Assembly: GCA_964016885.1 (NCBI GenBank)
Contig: OZ024741.1
Location: 105,524,001-105,588,000, forward strand
DNA length: 64,000 nucleotides
Source of the DNA: Eledone cirrhosa
Lineage: Eukaryota
Direction: 5' to 3'
Part shown: one piece after another, positions 18,401 through 57,110 of the stretch
Layout of the letters: each line of letters starts with the position of its first letter
How positions within the stretch are numbered: the stretch's first letter is position 1
The notes under the pieces: generated by a model
Databases searched by the model: none
The model's input: only the letters and a program-made list of their open reading frames with translations
Told to the model about the DNA's origin: nothing
Made by a program: the position numbers and the translations under genes

Positions 18401-21400
18401 ATCACCTTACAGGGAAGATTAACAAATATAAAAACAAATACTAATGACAATTTATTCTCTAAATAGAGAATTGGCATTTCAACCACTGTAAGGCCAATAG
18501 ATATGTAATTTGGTTCCAAAAAGTCTTTTTGACTCAACATTGCTTTCCAACCACTTTACAGAGTGTACTGGGTATATTTTACTGTGACACCAGCACTACT
18601 ACTTTACAGAGTGTACTGGGTGTATTTTATTGTGGATCCAGCACTACCACTTTACAGAGTATACTGGGTGTATTTTATTGTGACACCAGCACTACCACTT
18701 TACAGAATGTACTGGGTACATTTTATCATGGCACCAGCTTTACCACTTTACAGAGTGTACTGGGTGTATTTTATTGTGGTACCTGTGCTACCACATAACA
18801 GATTGTATTAGCTATATCATTGTGGCTCCAACACTCCCACATTACATGGTGGACTGGGTGTATTTTATTGTGGCACCAACACTACCACTTTACAGTGTAT
18901 ACTGGCTGTAGTTTATTGCAGAACTAGTACTACCAATTTACAGTGTGTACTGGGTGTAGTTTATTGTGCCACTAGCAATATTGAGTTTACTTTGAATCTT
19001 ATATTGTTTCTGTCCATTCAAGCAGCATGATCAAGAAGAGAGACAAGAGTGGTAGGTGATGTGTGCAAGTATATGATGACAGATGTGGCCTTATGGTCAG
19101 GTGATGATCAACTCCAGCCATTTCGTGGAATTTGAACTCAAAATGTAATAGATTCCACAAACATCTCATCCCATCCTCCACCAATTCCACAGATCCACTG
19201 CCATTTTATTGAACCAAATAAGGGGGATGACGAGCTAGGTACATATAACATTAAAGACAACTGGAAATTCCTACGTGACAACCTACTGAGGAGACTTGTG
19301 GCTAGAGTAAAGTACCAACCCGACAGAGAGTGACCTGGTGGTGGAACTACACAGTGGCTAGAACCATTAAAGCCAAGAGACAGGCATAGAAAGACTGGAA
19401 ATATTGGGGTAGCAGAGACCAGTACCAGATTGCTAAGAGAGAAGTTAGATGACAGATATACACAGCTCAGAGAGAGGCTGAAATGAAAGATGGCCAATGT
19501 TTTGAGATGTGAGGACCAGAGAAGTGAAGTGTTTCTCATTGTAAGGCAGTGTGTTAGTGTATGATGATGATGATGATGAAATGAATGAAAAGCAAAGTTG
19601 AACTCAGAGTGTATTGGAGCAAGATGTTCTATCTAACATAACAGAGTTCACTGGGTGTATTTTATTGAGGCACCAGTACTACCACATTACATGGTGGACC
19701 AAGTGTATTTTATTGTGGTACCAGCACAACCACTTTACAGACTGTACTGGGTGTACTTTTTGTGGCACCAATATTCTGCCAATTTGCCACCTTTTGGTGG
19801 TTAAACATCTCCATTAAACTATCTACAATGGAGTTTTATTAAACCAAAGACTTTTAAGACTTAATTGAGACAATTGATATTCAGTGAAAGTTCTAAAAAA
19901 ATAAATAAACAAATATATCTAAGTTATTTTTTGGGGTGGGTGGAAGTAATAAATAGCTTTTGAAATGTGAAGTTTGTAATAAAAGTTACCTACCAGGTTT
20001 CGACGGACATTATAACCACAAGAGTAATGAGGAAAGTTTCCCTGAAAAAGAACAATTTACATTCAGTAAGAGACACAAAAATATTTAGATATTATGTTGT
20101 CATATTGTGACACATTTACAAATAACTCTTATAATTAGCAACATTAGCAACATCATTAGCAACATTATTAACATCTATTTCCCTATGTTGGTATGGCTTG
20201 GACAGGTTTTCAATGCAACAAGTTTTCATGTATCAATTAATATCAATTAATCTGTGAAACAATCTTTATATGAAGTTGTGTGGTCTAGTGATTAGGGTTT
20301 TGGGTTCATAATCATAAGGTTGAGGATTCAATTCCCAGAACATTGTGTTATAGAGCAAGGTACTTCAAATATGAATACCATCAGAATATACTACTACCTT
20401 ACAGAGTGTACAGGGTACATTTTATCATGGTGCCAACACTAAAATGATCATTGCACCCTCAGTAAGAATCTCAACATAGTATATTATTGATCTGGTATAT
20501 AGTAGTTAAGTATTAATATAGAGACTTCACTCGATAGTACCAATGAAAATAACTAAAGAAGTAATGAGTAATAAAATTAAGTAATTAAGTATTCCCTATT
20601 TGTTGTTCCATCTTTATCTTCACTAAAGGGTAGAGACAAAACAACTTGAAGGGAGGACTCAAAATAAAGTCATGTATACATAAAAATAGAATCTCAGTTT
20701 GAATATGGTGAAAATATCCTTGCAATTTCAAGACCAAAATTCCCTGTAGAAGTGTTTAGGTCAGGGGTCACAAATTCAAGAACTCAAAAGGGCCATTATG
20801 TCATGTTGGAGAGGCACAGCAGGCTAATAGTGCAACCAGAGGGGGCGAGGAGGTATGATTTCAACACATATAATACTAATCTGCAATACAGCTTATGGGC
20901 TGATATTTATTTTATTTTATTTTATTTTATTTTTATCAAAATGAATATGTACATGAGAGTAAGTGGGATACGTGAATTTGTAAACTATAAATGAACAAAT
21001 TTTCTGTTTCAAATTTTACTTGATTACTCATGAGAATTGTTCTGCCACAGACCACAGAAAAGTAGTTTGTGGGTCACCTGTTTAAGAACCCTGGTTTAGG
21101 TGATGAAAAGCAAGCAAAAGAGAAATTAAAATGGCTTAGATAAAAGAGAAAAGCAACATTATTTGTAATGAAATATTTTAGTATTACTAACCGGAGAACT
21201 GATACAACAAGAGGGGGGGACACCACATGATTCTTCTCCATTGGCATCACATTTAAAATATTTATTCACCTCGTAGTCATGGAAAGAATCAAAACCACAG
21301 CATTCCCACTGAAAAATAATATTACAAAAAAATATTTCTTTCATTTGTTACCATATTTTTAATGCCTATGATTTTCAAATATCTTTAAAAGTAATCAAGA

Positions 21401-29000: not shown

Positions 29001-31469
29001 TAAGTAATAACACATTGCAAGCTCTCTCTCTCTCCCTCTCTTTCATACAAACACAGTCTTAACCTGTGTGATGTCATAAGTTTAATATATTGCTAGCTTT
29101 GTCTCTTCCCCCCACCCACTCTCTCTCACACACACATAGTTATAATTCATACACACCATATATATGAAATAGAGAAAGTGTTGGGTGGGATGGTATATAT
29201 TTCACATATGACATTATCTACCAAATCATGTGAAGAAAAGTGAGAGACATTGTGGAAGCCAATGCTGGTAAGTCTAAGAAATGGTAAGGTTTCTAGGTTT
29301 CTTTTGTGTATTGGCAGTCTTTGTTTCCAGGCAGTGTGGAGATGGTTCTCTAACATGTTGTTCTCAGCACACATACATCAATGGAAGGATTGCTTCAGTG
29401 TTTGTGTGTGTGTGTGTAAGCCAATCTAGGTTAATGGTAATAAATAAGCAGTGTTTTATGTCTTGACAATGGGGTGGGGAGAATGCCAGCTAACTCATTT
29501 TCTTTTTCTTTAGATCTCACCACCTCCATCACCATTACCACTACTGCTGCCCCCATTGCCACCATCACCATTACCATCACCAGTAGTACTTTATATTCAC
29601 ATAACCTTTAGAAAACATTTACTGTCATATTTTTATATGTAAATAAATACAATAAAAACTTAATCCATCCAACAGTAAATAGATTTAATCAATGATAGAA
29701 AGTGACACAGAGTAGAGATATATCTTAGATTTATGATTGAATAGAGATATGTCTTAAATTTATGACACAGTAAATATATATCTTAGATCTATGATATAGT
29801 AGAGATATTCTTCTTCTTCAGTTTGGTAGATAAGTGCAGCTATAATGATACAGATAGTATATCTCCCTGCTTAACTCTCTTCATGATGTACGAGGGTAAT
29901 CCCAAAAGTAAGGTCTCCAAAGCGATGGGGACGCAGAGAAACTGTTCGTACGGCTGTTGGCAACACTGTTGTGATTGGTGCTTCCTTCACTCCCAAACAA
30001 GCATGCGCGCGCTTCGCTGGGATGCTCAATCTTGGCTTGGCAGCTGTTGAGAATGGAGCTCCTGTTGAACGCTACTGCCAAGTGCGAATTTCACGCAGTT
30101 ATTATATAGAGGGCAATCCCAAAAGTAAGGTCTCCTTTTCCGAGGAAAACATGCGTAAAGATCGGCGGATCAGTCTGGATACTCTCTGCATTTTGGTTCC
30201 TGAGGTTTCCCGAAGCACCATCCAGAGGATTTTAACGGAAAAGTTGCAATATCAGAAGTTGCAATATTGGAAGTTGCAATATCGGAAGGAGACCTTACTT
30301 TTGAGATTGCTCTCGTATATACGTCATGTAGTTCCCAGATCTGTTTTTATATATGCTGTTTAGTTGGTGTGAGCTTCTTTCAGTAGATTCATGTATTTCT
30401 TGTTAATTGAGGTTTTGTTTAAGAGTTGCCACAAGCTGGGTAGTTTCATGCTGTCAAAAGCTTTTGTGAAGTCAATGAAGGTGATGTGCACAGGATTGTT
30501 GAATTCTATTGATTTCTCAATGATTTGTTCAATAGCTAAAATCTGCTCAATGGTGCCTCTTCCATGTTGATATACAGTTTGTGCTTCAGGAAATGAGACG
30601 TAAAGATTTGACCTCACTCGTGCTGCAATGATACTCATGCAAAGCTTGTAAACATGACTCAATAGTTCACACAATCAAGTCTTTTTTGTAGAGTACAACT
30701 TATCAATGCTTTCTTGAACATGTCCAGGCTTTTTTCCTGTGGTGATAATACAGTTAAAAAGATGTTGAAGTGCTTTGATAAGAGTTTCACCTCCAGCTTT
30801 GATGAATTCTGAGTATATGTTGTCTAGTCCAGGGCTTTTTCCTTGCTTCAAATTGTTGATGGCATGAGATATCTCGCTAATTAAGATAGCTGGAATGGCA
30901 TCTGATGTTGAATCATGAACGGTTGTTTTGAGTTGCTGTAGTACAGTTCTTCCTAGAATTTAGCCCAGCATTCAAGGATATCATCTTTGCTAGTGAGAAT
31001 AGTACTGTTCGAATCTTTGATGCCCCAGCTAAGATTTCTTGGTTTAGTCTTTAGTTTCTTCAAAACAGCATGATATAACTTATCAATCATTTATTACATA
31101 TCTCACAATACTTCATATTAACTATACTACTTTGTTCTTACATATAATTATAATAGAAAAGTTTTAGATAAATATAAACACCTTAAAATAAATAGTTTTG
31201 TCATAGAACCAGAAGTGGTTTGGTAGCTAAAGGATTAATTACAAAATAAAATACGGAAAATGGCTGATATAAAGCTTACTTACCACTTTCAATAGAATAA
31301 CATGTTCCTGGAATGTTCCTACGAGACCCAGAATGGCATTGATGAAGATAATAAGACCAACAGAAAGTAGAAGTGCCACAGGCAAAGACATGTAGTTGTT
31401 GAGGGCACCATACTTCCTACGTTCCACTTCAGCCCATACACCAATTATTAACAATGTAATACCAACAAA
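15302..31469 (-). CDS. TSPAN15: TspanC8 tetraspanin (TSPAN15-like), spliced CDS lacking its first coding exon; exons 31284-31469, 28658-28732, 21998-22096, 21192-21308, 19994-20041, 18040-18156, 15302-15406
   Basis: Seven AG/GT-bounded phase-0 exons (186,75,99,117,48,117,105 nt) join into one open frame with TM segments, CCG, PxSCC and 8 Cys in the large loop. WAEVERRKY resembles vertebrate TSPAN15 YAEVERQKY from memory. Orthology needs a phylogeny. Confidence 0.9.
15546..16412 (+). mobile_element. RTE 3' fragment with 3' UTR and (GAT)n tail
   Basis: [21 protein letters not shown], in-frame stops; ends ggacgtaaaacggt(gat)n. Confidence 0.9.
16421..16590 (-). mobile_element. RTE/SINE 3' UTR fragment, tail-to-tail with the previous element
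   Basis: (ATC)n then gtttaac...cagctggatgtccttcctaac. Confidence 0.75.
16608..16990 (-). mobile_element. Penelope-like pLTR remnant with decayed hammerhead (16741-16799)
   Basis: atac-CTGATGA-helix II-GAAA-tgatca-ca-gtat; ends at (TA)n. Confidence 0.5.
17188..17372 (+). mobile_element. Young full-length family-1 tRNA-derived SINE with TSD
   Basis: A box tggcagtatcgg, B box gagttcaaatcc; TSD attattaaccattcag at 17173-17188 and 17373-17388. Confidence 0.95.
18040..18156 (-). CDS. TSPAN15: Tetraspanin exon (last EC2 Cys, start of TM4): [13 protein letters not shown]...GSAIPQ
   Basis: ctactag / gtttgt, 117 nt, IxTxGC motif. Confidence 0.9.
18191..18410 (-). mobile_element. RTE/SINE 3' UTR fragment with (CAT)n tail
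   Basis: Same motifs as 16421 and 45825. Confidence 0.75.
18550..18978. repeat. 48-bp minisatellite, ~9 copies (more at 19640-19772 and 20391-20440)
   Basis: accactttacagagtgtactgggtgtattttattgtggcaccagcact. Confidence 0.92.
19010..19560 (+). mobile_element. Decayed RTE ORF fragments
   Basis: [29 protein letters not shown]. Confidence 0.8.
19994..20041 (-). CDS. TSPAN15: Tetraspanin exon: [16 protein letters not shown]
   Basis: ctttttcag / gtaggt, 48 nt, CGY motif of the TspanC8 group. Confidence 0.88.
20762..21093. mobile_element. hAT-type MITE
   Basis: Imperfect TIRs CAGGGGTCACAAA / TTTAAGAACCCTG; 8-bp TSD GTTTAGGT at 20754-20761 and 21094-21101. Confidence 0.85.
21192..21308 (-). CDS. 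TSPAN15: Tetraspanin exon (CCG and PxSCC): [12 protein letters not shown]...[13 protein letters not shown]
   Basis: ttttcag / gttagt, 117 nt, signature cysteine motifs. Confidence 0.95.
21483..21667 (-). mobile_element. Young family-1 SINE with 18-bp TSD
   Basis: TSD ctgacataaaattataat at 21465-21482 and 21667-21684. Confidence 0.95.
21721..21932 (+). mobile_element. piggyBac-type MITE
   Basis: TTAA at 21717-20 and 21933-36; ends tccttt / aaaggg. Confidence 0.72.
21998..22096 (-). CDS. TSPAN15: Tetraspanin exon (EC2 helices): [33 protein letters not shown]
   Basis: ttttcag / gtaagt, 99 nt, D-x-LQ motif preceding CCG. Confidence 0.9.
22284..24656 (+). mobile_element. Decayed RTE LINE (second family, (GAA)n tail) interrupted by a Gypsy remnant
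   Basis: [36 protein letters not shown]; colinear with 59815-60397 across the insertion. Confidence 0.85.
23034..24114 (-). mobile_element. Internally deleted Ty3/Gypsy element (integrase remnant)
   Basis: [23 protein letters not shown] (GPY/F), DHFSRWPEA; TG...CA ends. Confidence 0.85.
26040..27270. mobile_element. RTE fragments (+ 26040-26480; - 26800-27270)
   Basis: [24 protein letters not shown]; [21 protein letters not shown]. Confidence 0.75.
28031..28220 (+). mobile_element. Diverged family-2 SINE
   Basis: aaggtgcatggcttag...gttcctgagcaag. Confidence 0.55.
28225..28530. repeat. ~55-bp minisatellite
   Basis: gctctcagttgtataacac...caggacaagcta, about 5 copies. Confidence 0.85.
28658..28732 (-). 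CDS. TSPAN15: Tetraspanin exon (TM3): [25 protein letters not shown]
   Basis: ttttcag / gttagt, 75 nt, hydrophobic with the polar Q typical of TM3; not in the ORF track. Confidence 0.9.
28899..28996 (+). mobile_element. 5'-truncated family-1 SINE with TSD
   Basis: TSD attattaagtaataac on both sides. Confidence 0.9.
29891..30315 (+). mobile_element. Internally deleted mariner with a second left TIR at ~30108
   Basis: TA-cgagggtaatcccaaaagtaaggtctcc ... ggagaccttacttttgagattgctctcg-TA; HTH remnant DRRISL...[13 protein letters not shown]. Confidence 0.85.
30320..31075 (-). mobile_element. Decayed RT fragment of a third RTE-like LINE
   Basis: [34 protein letters not shown]. Confidence 0.8.
31284..31469 (-). 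CDS. TSPAN15: Tetraspanin exon (end of TM1, small loop, TM2): [20 protein letters not shown]...EHVILLKV
   Basis: ttttcag acceptor, gtaagt donor, 62 codons. Confidence 0.93.
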
Positions 31470-31584: not shown

Positions 31585-31586
<2 letters not shown>

Positions 31587-32058
31587 CGCTTTCTAGCAAC
31601 CAACCCACTCACAACCATTCACACTCTTTCTGACTTGACCACTGCCACGTCACGGTTCTCAGCCATTTTGAATTCGTGTTTGGCGGGGGCCACTTCAGAA
31701 AATAATCTGTCCTAGCGAGTTTGTCCCCTGAAGAGTTCGAAACTCGAGATTTATCCTTAATAGGATATCTCAAAATGAGAATGAAACCCATGGGTCGGGA
31801 TTTAGAGATTTAATCCTGGTATGTATATAAGCATTTCTAACTTTAATTTTATACCTAATTGTGTATGGTTGACCGTATATTTAATTAATTTCCACATGCT
31901 GTTGAAATGTTGGGTAAATATTCTATAGTGGTTGGCCGCGAAGACGCTGCTATCGTTTATTTATTTACTGTTTCTTCATAGGTGCCTTTTATTCTTATAG
32001 CCTGGTCTAATTGATTTTTTGTGTGGTTAATTATGCTAATTGGGAGAAGAAATGATGT
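31585..32058 (+). mobile_element. Penelope-pLTR/retrozyme-like insertion between TA runs
   Basis: More GC-rich segment flanked by TA repeats and carrying an intact hammerhead. Confidence 0.6.
31723..31801 (+). ncRNA. Type I hammerhead ribozyme, canonical core
   Basis: GTCCC-CTGAAGA-GTTC...GAAT-GAAA-CCCATGGG-TC-GGGAT; GUC site at 31794-31796; palindromic helix III ACCCATGGGT. Confidence 0.8.
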
Positions 32059-32754
32059 ATATATATTATCAAATGATTCTATGGACATGCTTTACTTTAT
32101 AGTATATATATATATATATGGAGAAGAAGTTTACGAAATGGAAATGCGGGTATATAGAATTTATTAGGTAACAATTGTTTCTATAGTGTATGGGTAACCA
32201 TATATATATATCATAAACATATTAGCATATATAGGGAGATATATCTGCTAATATATACATGCTAGCATATGGAACACACTCAGGGAGGTTTTCTGCAGCT
32301 ATGCATATATGTAATATACAGATTGTTCAAATAAAAATAAGTATTTAATGGGTGAAATATCTACTGATATGCATATCTACATATCTAGAGTTATGTAGAT
32401 ATTAAAATTACACACACATAGCAAAATTGCAATTGAAAAAAAGAATGGAAAAATAATATGAAACACGTAGGATGAATAAAAGCATCAACCTTCCTCATTA
32501 GCCACCCCCTGGGCAATGCAATTTCTTGCACAATTCTAGTATTGCATAATATTGGGTCCATATTGAATGACTGCTTAGAACAAACAAGCCGTCAGAAAGA
32601 TGCATATCAGACAACACAACAACAACGAAATTGCATTACCCAGGAGAACAAGTGAATGTCTTTCAACTAGAATAGCAAAGTATGTAAACAAATAACAATA
32701 ATAAGTTTTTAAACTGGAAACAGGACAGGATATGTGCATGGGTGTGTATGCATG

Positions 32755-32939: not shown

Positions 32940-33505
32940 GAGATCCATCTGTCTCTTAACCCAGGACGAGGGTTGAGTTCATCACTTTAAGCCAGACAAT
33001 CCATGCAGTGGAATCACCCCTTCTCACCCGCTACAAAAAAGCCAATGTCGTTTCATCTGCAGGGAAGGTGATGGCCTCAGTTTTGGGGAATGCAAAAAAC
33101 ATTGTGTTTATTTACTATCTTCAAAATGTTGTAAATGGAGAGTACTATGCTAACTTATTGAGGCAGTTACGAAAAGCTAGCAAGACCAAATGGCCAGGAA
33201 AACTGATGAAAGGAGTCTCATTTCATCAGGACCATGCTCCAGCACACAAGTCCTTGGTTTCAATGGCTGGTGTGTGTGACTGTGGCTTTGAATTAGTTGA
33301 TCAGCCCCCTTATTCTCCTGATTTGGCTCCATCTGAATATCATCTGTTTCCCAATGGTAAAGACACTTAGCTGAGAACCAGTATCGCAGTAATGATGACA
33401 TCATATTGCTGTTGAGGACATTTTTTACCAATATGATGAAAGCTTCTTCACCAGTGGGATCCAAGTACTGGAGCACTGATGGAAGAAGTGTATGGTCTGC
33501 ATAAA
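32940..33505 (+). pseudogene. Mariner (DD34D) transposase catalytic-domain fragment
   Basis: SAGKVMASV, FHQDHAPAH, PPYSPDLAPSEYHLF; frameshifts. Confidence 0.9.
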
Positions 33506-34310
33506 AAATATTACGAGAGAGATAGAGAGAAGAAATTAACAAGAGGATGAATAGAACTCATGTAACGTTAATTGGGGGAATATATTCTAAGTATATCTAC
33601 TAATGGTATGTGTATTTACGATTAATTAGTTGTTAAAATTCTTTTCTAATATAATATTTACTGTTATAAGTAGATAGAAAAATAAATAGATATAAAAATA
33701 GATATAAAAATAGATAGAAAAATAGATAGAAAAATAGATAGAAAAATAAATCAATAAATAGATAAATATATAATAGATAAATAAATGGATAGATGTGTAT
33801 ATCGTGTTATAGATAATTGTTTTAATGAGTTATGAGGGATATTGGTTTTATATTTAATGTAAATAAATATTAAGTTAAATTAAATTAAGTTAACTGAGTT
33901 AATAAGAATATTTATATTTATATATTTTAAAATGGGAAGATATGGAAAAAACTCCAGTTTTGTTTATTTATTCGTAAGTATGAGATTATTTTGTCAAAAT
34001 AAGTATAAATGTTGAAAGATATATTTAGCCTGAATTAGTTAGTGGTTAAAAATCTAATAAAAGATATTAAAAAATTTTATTAAAAAATATTAAAAATTCG
34101 GGAAGATTTTTCAAAAAGTAATTTATAAGAGATAAGTAATTTTTAAAAAGTAAGTAATTTTTAAAAATATATAAAAAATTTAAGAAATAAAAAATAAAGA
34201 ATTAAAAAAATGAACTATCCAGTGAATTTCCAAATGAACTACCCAGTGAATTTCCAACCGATAAGGTATGATTTTCATGGGTATGTCTCTTATTTATAAA
34301 ACAAACTTTG

Positions 34311-34375
34311 TATTTTATCTGATGAAAGCGTACCAATGTTGTCTTGGTTGCCCTTGAAATGTATATAATAAAATA
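34311..34375 (+). ncRNA. Minimal type I hammerhead ribozyme, canonical core
   Basis: TATTTTAT-CTGATGA-AAG...CTT-GAAA-T gtat A-TA-ATAAAATA; 8-bp helix I; AUA site at 34365-34367. Confidence 0.75.
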
Positions 34376-34861
34376 AATATGGTTTTATAAATATAGTTTC
34401 CATTTATTTAATATCATTGAATATTTACTCCAGTAACTTGTTGAGTGCTCTAAATCCGTTACAAACATTTATGTTTGTTGGACTTCCAACAAATTAAATA
34501 CAACTTCTACTTATGTATATATATCTAATATATATTTGTGAAATGGGTGGTGGTTGAAATTCAGATGTGCACGGTTAAATGGTAGTAGATGTGGTCGGAC
34601 TGACATGAAAATTTACACACCTATGTAAAAAGTGCCAAGGAAGCAAATAGATGAGGTTTCAAATCTCTAACTTGAAAAATATGGTCCCTGGGGCCCCCAA
34701 ACGGTCTATTTACTATCGCGTTCGGTGAGTTATTTCCCCTTGTTCTAATACTTTTGTCTTATTTACAATTTCATAAAATTTCATAAAGCAGTAAATAAAG
34801 GATTATGAGTTCATGCAATTGACTTATGTTTCGTCACTATATATATATATATATATATATA

Positions 34862-45824: not shown

Positions 45825-46976
45825 ATCATCATCATCATCATCGTTTAACGTCCATCTTCCACGCTTGCATGGGTTTGGACGGGAGTTTTCCCACTTGAGG
45901 CAAGAGTGGTTGTCTTGCTCGCATAGGACTGTCTGGCGGGTTTTCTACGGCTGGATGCCCTTCCTAACACCAACCACGTTTACAGTTGTGACTGGGAGGT
46001 TTTTACCGTGTTACCTACACGGCCATATTACAGCGTGGACTGTGTGTTTTTGTCGTGACACCTACACGACCTCATTTGTTTCGGACTGGATGTTGTGGTA
46101 CCAACATAACTTTACATTGAAAGGGGTGGTGTGGATGGGGTGGGGGTAGTGGGACGGCGGTGTATTTTTGTTAGAGGTGCCTACTGACTGTAGTAGGTTT
46201 CACTTTGTACTTAGGTAAGGCGGGTCTTCTGTATTACTGTGTAGCGCCAAAGATCTCGGTCCAGTGACATTGTCTTGGAGAGGTGTAAGTGTGTGAGGTC
46301 AGAATTTATCAAGTCGTCCCAGGTTTTTCTAGGTCTGCCTATTCCGTGACTACCGTCTATTTTTATTGCCCTGCACTTTTTTATACAGCTGTCGTCTTTC
46401 ATGCGCATCACATGACCATACCAACGTAGTCTTCTCTCGAGTAAACAACATCTGATCCCTCTTATTTCTAATTTTTCCCTTAGTTTGTTTATGCTTTGCC
46501 GTTCACGTATATTACTATTACACATCCAACGGAGCATGCAAGCTTCGTTCCTCTCCAGTCTGCATATATCCTCTGCACACAATGCCCAGGTCTCATTGCC
46601 ATGTAACATTGCTGTTCGTATGCAGGCATCATACAGCCTGCCTTTCATTTTTAGAGAGAACTCTTTAGCAGCTAATAGTGGTATAAGCTCTCTGAACTTT
46701 TTCCATCCAGTTCTGATTCTAGCTACTGTACTTTCAGAGCACCCTCCACCACTGCTGATTTTGTCCCCCAAGTAACAGAAGGTGTCCACTATTTCTCTAG
46801 AACCATCTGTGCAATGGAATGAGCTAGTATTCTGTGGGCACTTGCTGCTACTTATTGCACCAGAGCACCGGCCACATATAAAATCTATATTCTTAGTTAG
46901 CTTACCTGTGATCCCACTACATCTTTTATGCACCCATACTTTGCATTTGGGACATAAAATGGGGTTTCTGCCTACT
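45825..46976 (-). mobile_element. 5'-truncated RTE: open ORF 46976-46211, ~385-bp 3' UTR, (GAT)n tail
   Basis: [41 protein letters not shown]; 5' junction in (TA)n. Confidence 0.93.
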
Positions 46977-48450
<1,474 letters not shown>

Positions 48451-48453
<3 letters not shown>

Positions 48454-51084: not shown

Positions 51085-56512
<5,428 letters not shown>

Positions 56513-57110
56513 TGTTGGTGCTACTGGTAACATGTATCCCAGTACAACCTGTCTCATGGTTGGGGTCGTTGGCGACTAAACTGGCAACCCCACCAAGGTT
56601 TCTTGGTGAGAAGGGTGACTTTGGACATCCTGCAGGACGAAAAACAAAACCTGTCAAAGGGCAAAGGAGCTCTTAAGAGTCAATGGCCATCCAAAATCAC
56701 TGGGAGAGATGACCCCTTAGCCTTTGTCAAGGCAGAATTCTAGGAGAAGGAAAACTCTGATATAACACCTGCAACCCTGATGGTATCCAATGATGTTGAC
56801 TTGTTCCTCTTTTTGGTAAATATCATCTTGGTTACGAGAGTGGGACTGGCTTTGTGCAGTGCCTTTGCTCACTATAAAAGCTTCACGGCACAGGCATTGC
56901 TTTAATCTGGAGATCTCTCTCCACTTGTCGTCACATGGTACCATGGGCCCAGCACAATGTGTCAATGATTGTCACAAGTGTAGTGTTTGTACCAGAGTTT
57001 TCAAGTCGCTGGCTGGACTAAAAAGTCACACTCGTTCAGCGCATCGGTAGGGGTTCTCCTACATTGATATAAAGTAGTGGCCGTACTCGAAAACGAGTTG
57101 GCAGCCACCA
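56513..57110 (+). mobile_element. Probable bipartite non-autonomous RTE derivative (5' UTR-like part joined to a C-terminal C2H2 remnant, (TATG)n tail)
   Basis: ggagaaggaaaactctga resembles RTE 5' UTRs (recall); CSVCTRVFKSLAGLKSHTRSAH* resembles RTE C-termini. Confidence 0.55.

What the first reader, a model, noticed from the sequence alone, without database searches (positions are those of the whole stretch)
33505..34520. Second intact, very AT-rich minimal hammerhead at the end of a 1-kb AT-rich element
At 34311-34375 there is an 8-bp helix I, CUGAUGA, helix II aag..accaa/ttggt..ctt, GAAA, a 2-bp helix III and an AUA site. AUGUAUAU is self-complementary with G.U pairs, fitting a dimer mechanism. 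Outside the core it shows no visible similarity to the 31723 ribozyme, so several families seem to coexist in this region.
Basis: partly seen in the sequence, partly recalled or inferred. Interest (0 to 1): 0.75.

Follow-up and report, generated by a model that had tools for sequence, protein, structure and literature searches.

The report
Hydra-clade Penelope end with hammerhead ribozyme
This is a broken, likely inert end-piece of a known type of jumping gene whose predicted self-cutting RNA motif occurs about 75,000 times in this animal genome, and the variants of that motif suggest it would cut only when two copies pair.

Summary
The hammerhead at 34311-34375 is real (0 of 3000 shuffles). 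It lies in the 3' end (pseudo-LTR) of a Penelope-like retrotransposon of the Hydra clade: copies elsewhere carry it in sense behind an RT plus C-terminal GIY-YIG ORF with the clade's motifs. The '1-kb element' is not colinear: 33501-34209 is the 3'UTR inverted, 34238-34511 the sense end. One narrow pattern finds 74,723 exact motifs. The helix III centre, which cannot pair within one molecule, is ATAT, ATGT or GCGC in 70,743 of them, ACAT in 117: natural covariation for a dimer ribozyme. The G.U version here is a private A>G change. Outward-facing arm pairs carry one tailed and one tail-less end (39 of 47). No pile-up of 5' ends at the cut site. The 31723 ribozyme is a separate family. Cleavage is untested. 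Known kind, new family; the scan noted Hydra-clade fold-back ends on other DNA of this genome before.

The parts
33501..34209 (-). Inverted arm: AT-rich 3'UTR of the Penelope-like element; its outer ~310 nt (with a second hammerhead) are missing
   Evidence: Aligns in reverse between ORF end and pseudo-LTR in ORF-bearing copies L075, L080, L088, L094; complete two-armed copies L014, L021; 11 differences in 580 scored columns from the majority of 9 copies
34208..34257 (.). Junction of the two arms with a 24-bp tandem duplication
   Evidence: TRF period 24, 2.1 copies; absent from L014 and L021
34238..34511 (+). Sense arm: 3' end / pseudo-LTR, long (tailed) form
   Evidence: 29 of 29 top copies fetched align here at 93-97%; 4 differences in 252 columns from their majority
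34311..34375 (+). Type I hammerhead motif; predicted cut after A34367; palindrome 34359-34366
   Evidence: pair counts over 15 subfamily representatives
34420..34511 (+). 92-nt tail between the two fixed ends (G34419 short, T34511 long), with two conserved hairpins (34426-34447, 34474-34493)
   Evidence: Ends at +52 and +144 from the cut site; consensus fold of 11 sequences, 14 pairs, 3 with double changes
34512..34535 (.). Degenerate (TA)n target remnant
   Evidence: Sequence; other copies run into (TA)n at the same base
32960..33500 (+). Left flank: mariner transposon remnant lacking its last ~80 bp
   Evidence: Pfam PF01359 E 8.6e-08; 7 other copies continue ~80 nt beyond the junction
31585..32119 (+). 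Neighbouring, unrelated hammerhead repeat family (motif from 31723; palindrome ACCCATGGGT)
   Evidence: 40 of 40 scored candidates (of 1617) match; bounds and lack of similarity

Best explanation
This is a young, 5'-truncated, two-armed insertion of a Hydra-clade Penelope-like retrotransposon, and its hammerhead motif is predicted to cut only as a dimer and is likely idle in this solo copy. Shown: the motif sits in sense about 190 nt before the ATG in upstream pseudo-LTRs and behind the 3'UTR in downstream ones; insertions consist of two outward-facing 3' ends joined to (TA)n, as a rule one ending +52 and one +144 nt past the cut site; the helix III palindrome covaries. Inferred: the GIY-YIG endonuclease nicks both strands of a (TA)n run; reverse transcription is primed from each nick, once at each of two start sites that bracket a structured 92-nt tail; both cDNAs run through an uncut (or re-joined) ribozyme, stop early and are joined back to back. 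In pLTR-ORF-pLTR transcripts two ribozymes 3.2-3.9 kb apart would pair through the palindrome and release unit-length RNA. At this locus a later deletion likely removed the outer left arm, its TA run and the mariner's end.
For: Clade motifs RWR, DKT, CxCx5C, CxxC, CxH, C-terminal EN, no DKG or GxKF/Y match PMC8557442 section 11. Hammerhead in sense in ORF-bearing copies with 92-95% identity to the window's end (L080, L083, L088, L094). 74,723 pattern matches, reversed control 0. Centre ATAT 25,735, ATGT 24,319, GCGC 20,689, ACAT 117. Over 15 representatives 93.3% of cells pair; the two adjacent loop bases are complementary in 15 of 15 (UA 7, UG 5, CG 3); 8 of 9 helix II pairs show double changes. 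Monomer fold -2.5 against MFE -6.2 kcal/mol. End rule 39 of 47 by script, p 1.6e-6 against independence. Two internal RT starts, extension on both strands and use of uncut RNA were shown for an anole PLE in vitro (PMC11167929).
Against: No cleavage or expression data. No excess of 5' ends at the cut site: 3 of 30 sampled from 533 against 7 of 30 from 422 at a control base, so no genomic trace that cut RNA is copied. Pair 10.1-11.1 is A-U in 9 of 15 and G-C in 1, unlike the conserved G-C of PMC4209133. Copy counts descend from few source elements and the pattern fixed the core, helix I and the outer helix III pairs. 8 of 47 arm pairs broke the end rule by script (4 after reading by eye). Pfam gave 0 families for both ORFs; no tree was built. 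The left junction of this copy is atypical.
Confidence: 0.82

Rival explanations
1. The ribozyme is a fossil or passenger: pairing is kept for RNA structure or protein binding and it rarely or never cuts in vivo.
For: No pile-up of ends at the cut site; all sampled copies span the site; HHR mutants did not change insertion in vitro for an anole PLE (PMC11167929); weak activity of PLE ribozymes (PMC4209133).
Against: The catalytic core is kept across helix II sequences that have diverged widely, though the search imposed it; H17 and the palindrome stay compatible with cutting.
Confidence: 0.25
2. It is a non-autonomous retrozyme (short tandem repeat propagated as circular RNA), not part of a coding element.
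For: No ORF in the window copy (tblastn blank); type I motif as in animal retrozymes (PMC7229834).
Against: Both arms are pieces of an ORF-bearing element; no tandem array of a short unit; in L083 the upstream and downstream ribozymes of one copy differ by a double change in helix I, which one circle copied twice would not give (single case).
Confidence: 0.05
3. The inverted arm came from a single cDNA folding back on itself, or this copy arose by L1-type twin priming at an internal site with target deletion, not by later deletion.
For: Arms often share variants (median 1 mismatch); the window's left arm starts at a non-standard point and does not overlap the right arm.
Against: The tail-less arm can reach further 5' than the tailed arm (L014, L021, L084, L085), which fold-back from the tailed arm cannot give; all 14 inverted arms paired in the window's subfamily began at or near the fixed short end; the mariner's end is missing too.
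Confidence: 0.15
4. The ribozyme has been co-opted to regulate the host tetraspanin transcript.
For: Tetraspanin exon at 31284-31469 and a CCG exon near 21300, minus strand.
Against: The motif is antisense to that gene; the copy is under 2% diverged from thousands of others.
Confidence: 0.02

Closest known systems
Hydra clade of C-terminal EN+ Penelope-like elements (Craig et al. 2021, PMC8557442; section 11, passages, supplement part 2 and searches read), including Hydra-1_Obim
   Same: RWK-like, DKT, CxCx5C, CxxC, CxH motifs; sense hammerhead near the 3' end; (TA)n targets; inverted truncated copies; tail at one end only.
   Different: Different family from Hydra-1_Obim (other ribozyme sequence, protein visibly homologous but much diverged by eye); unit 3.2-3.9 kb with a ~1-kb 3'UTR against <3 kb; tail 92 nt against 30-40 bp; about 75,000 motifs.
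PLE hammerheads of Cervera and De la Pena 2014 (PMC4209133; parts 1-2 of 4 read)
   Same: Type I, short palindromic helix III, dimer proposed, mostly solo motifs from truncated PLEs, opposite-strand pairs 100-700 bp apart.
   Different: 8-bp helix I, A-U or G-U at 10.1-11.1; their largest counts were ~4,000 and ~9,000 per genome.
Poseidon PAc of Anolis (Frangieh et al. 2024, PMC11167929; parts 1-2 of 4 read)
   Same: Two internal RT start sites downstream of the ribozyme that define the tail; both strands extended; uncut RNA used.
   Different: There the ribozyme and tail overlap the ORF start; here both lie in the 5'UTR, ~48 nt before the ATG, and the starts are 92 nt apart.
Animal non-LTR retrozymes (PMC7229834, passages; bioRxiv 10.64898/2026.07.22.740005, part 1 of 5)
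   Same: Type I hammerheads, dimer-dependent in amphibians; 126,247 motifs in axolotl.
   Different: Short tandem non-coding units; this one is a fragment of a coding element.

Membership tests
Type I hammerhead ribozyme | CUGANGA, GAAA and NUH joined by three helices | tested here: met
Type I hammerhead ribozyme | Helices supported by covariation | tested here: met
   10 of 21 pairs with double changes; 0 of 500 shuffles reach the score (relatedness not controlled)
Type I hammerhead ribozyme | G10.1-C11.1 pair (usual, not universal) | tested here: not met
   A-U here; AU 9, GU 4, GC 1, other 1 of 15
Type I hammerhead ribozyme | Self-cleavage | not testable with these tools
   No assay; indirect footprint test negative
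Dimer (double) hammerhead | Palindromic helix III too weak for a monomer | tested here: met
Penelope-like element (EN+) | Single ORF with RT and GIY-YIG endonuclease linked to this end | tested here: met
   Read in L075, L078, L080, L083; YRDD and YVG..F..R..N motifs; Pfam blank; 31 full-length relatives at 31-42%
Penelope-like element (EN+) | Partial tandems (pLTR), inverted truncated copy, tail at one end | tested here: met
   L035, L078, L083
Hydra clade | C-terminal EN; RWK; DKT; CxCx5C; CxxC and CxH; no GxKF/Y | tested here: met
   (RWR in place of RWK)
Hydra clade | (TA)n targeting and canonical hammerhead | tested here: met
Hydra clade | Placement in an RT tree with published Hydra proteins | not tested
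   Published sequences were only viewed
Naiad clade | N-terminal EN, no canonical hammerhead | tested here: not met
   EN is C-terminal, hammerhead present
Non-LTR retrozyme | Short non-coding tandem units | tested here: not met

The most novel reading that the evidence does not exclude
Each insertion is made by an asymmetric dimeric RNP that uses each of two hairpin-marked start sites exactly once, one per target strand, and the hammerhead palindrome serves as much to pair RNA copies as to cut; this family, with about 25 motifs per Mb, is the natural experiment that shows it.
Probability: 0.3. Interest if true: 0.6.

Novelty: new member of a known kind. Interest (0 to 1): 0.33.

Why it matters
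The locus itself is transposon debris. The family matters modestly: it supplies genome-scale covariation for the long-assumed dimer mechanism of PLE hammerheads, a countable one-tail rule that constrains how PLEs insert, near-intact ORFs for an in vitro system of a clade not yet assayed in the papers read, and a motif count (74,723 from one pattern in 3.0 Gb) far above the ~9,000 reported for a frog and near the 126,247 for axolotl.

Tried and rejected
Rfam at gathering score: 0 matches in the window. Repeat finder on the whole window was swamped by TA runs. Pfam on two family ORFs: 0 families. tblastn of the family ORF against the window and the 15 loci of the 31723 family: blank; a GIY-YIG fragment in L072 is separated from that family by TA runs and is not linked to it. 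Sequencing runs: no RNA holder listed. Arm-to-arm identity could not tell one template RNA from two: of 61 pairs, 25 closer, 18 equal, 18 further than the nearest other copy, and pairs were picked for likeness. RNA-editing origin of the A>G change: no A>G excess in either arm. Footprint of cleavage in 5' ends: none; junctions that happen to supply an A are invisible to this test. Naiad identity, first suspected from recalled motifs, rejected. First coding exon of the tetraspanin not found, so 'intronic' is likely, not shown. Literature searches listed no paper on this family or on a strict one-tail pairing beyond the qualitative statement in PMC8557442; subscription journals and Repbase were not searchable.

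Full report
Observation. The motif is as described: helix I 34311-34318 with 34368-34375, CTGATGA, helix II, GAAA, a 2-bp helix III and ATA at 34365-34367. A descriptor scan found exactly two type I motifs in the window, at 31728 and 34319; 0 of 3000 shuffles of the element reached the observed helix lengths, and 60 window shuffles averaged 0.05 motifs at loose settings. Rfam gave nothing at gathering score.

What it belongs to. The genome is 3.0 Gb. A search with 34255-34430 had 1507 candidates, 40 scored, 55 matches. All 29 other loci fetched align to 34238-34535; many carry a second, inverted copy. Upstream of such copies lie RT and GIY-YIG coding stretches. In 20 regions chosen for long RT frames, the ribozyme of this kind lies in sense after the ORF in 12, and window 33501-34209 aligns in reverse between ORF and ribozyme. 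So the window holds the 3'UTR inverted, a junction with a 24-bp duplication, and the sense 3' end. The ORF of L078 has RWR, DKT, CxCx5C, CxxC and CxH and lacks DKG and GxKF/Y: the definition of the Hydra clade (PMC8557442 section 11). A cephalopod member, Hydra-1_Obim, is listed there with another ribozyme sequence. Unit length from tandem copies is 3.2-3.9 kb; the ATG lies about 190 nt after the cut site. The copy is young: 4 of 252 and 11 of 580 columns differ from subfamily majorities.

Abundance and dimer test. One pattern with fixed core gives 37,515 + 37,208 exact matches, reversed control 0. Its four free helix III bases are ATAT in 25,735, ATGT in 24,319 and GCGC in 20,689, together 70,743 of 74,723; ACAT, the mirror change of ATGT that cannot pair, occurs 117 times. 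100 distinct held motifs fell into 15 clusters. On 15 aligned representatives 93.3% of cells pair, 8 of 9 helix II pairs show double changes, and the two adjacent central bases, which cannot pair within one strand, are complementary in 15 of 15. Counts are of copies, not events, and the pattern imposed the core. The window's G34361 is private; its predicted duplex energy equals the family form (-3.2 kcal/mol; ACAT +1.0), and the monomer fold is disfavoured. Pair 10.1-11.1 is A-U, not the usual G-C.

Ends. Copies join (TA)n either 52 or 144 nt after the cut site; the 92-nt tail between holds two conserved hairpins. I took 47 outward-facing arm pairs (40 picked from listings as like neighbours before their ends were seen, 7 from earlier loci): 39 had one tailed and one tail-less end, 7 two short, 1 two long (p 1.6e-6); by eye 4 of the 7 carry a damaged tail, and the two-long case is an internal pseudo-LTR. 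PMC8557442 states a one-sided tail qualitatively; PMC11167929 maps a tail to two RT start sites and shows both strands extended. Either arm may reach further 5', which favours two cDNAs over fold-back. Whether they share one RNA stayed open.

Does it cut? Both start sites lie downstream of the cut site and copies span it, so the template was uncut or re-joined there. Copies starting exactly at the site were 3 of 30 sampled (of 533) against 7 of 30 (of 422) at a control base 12 nt on: no footprint of cut templates in these subfamilies. An earlier scan note (e1-9980513) reports such ends for its own insertions; I did not reproduce that here. Cleavage is untested.

This locus. The left arm lacks about 310 nt with the second ribozyme and the TA run, and the flanking mariner lacks its last ~80 bp; a later deletion is the simplest reading (inference). 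The motif is antisense to a tetraspanin gene and has no partner of its family in the window, so it is likely idle. The 31723 motif belongs to a 535-bp repeat of another family with a 10-nt palindrome; the two palindromes cannot pair with each other.

Verdict. A real hammerhead motif in an ordinary fragment of a new, very abundant family of a known clade. Earlier scan notes describe Hydra-clade fold-back ends, tail hairpins and two fixed ends on other DNA of this genome; none matched this sequence. My clade call and end rule were made before those look-ups. Interest 0.33.

Noticed in passing
window 31585-32119: Second hammerhead repeat family, TA-flanked, with inverted partial copies and two ends 14 nt apart (32105, 32119); no ORF linked in 15 loci.
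   Followed up: partly
window 31284-31469 and near 21300, minus strand: Tetraspanin exons (Pfam PF00335; CCG motif); first coding exon not found.
   Followed up: partly
window 32960-33500 and 29887-30363: Mariner transposase remnants.
   Followed up: partly
window 30360-30959, minus strand: Broken LINE-type RT fragments.
   Followed up: no
window 46976-48452 and 51085-56513: Very long (TA)n-type arrays, 1.5 and 5.4 kb.
   Followed up: no
L083:2316 region (oriented): Upstream ribozyme has a double compensatory change in helix I absent from the downstream one of the same copy.
   Followed up: no
L013, L026, L037, L063, L071, L081, L086, L087: At least six further unrelated type I hammerhead families near fetched loci, most with palindromic helix III.
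   Followed up: no
L078:2488-4710; L075:2584-4800: Near-full-length natural ORFs of the family (741 codons open in L078, with YRDY at the catalytic motif).
   Followed up: partly
window 34512-34624: Right flank matches another repeat (L150:1-113, 93%, inverted).
   Followed up: no
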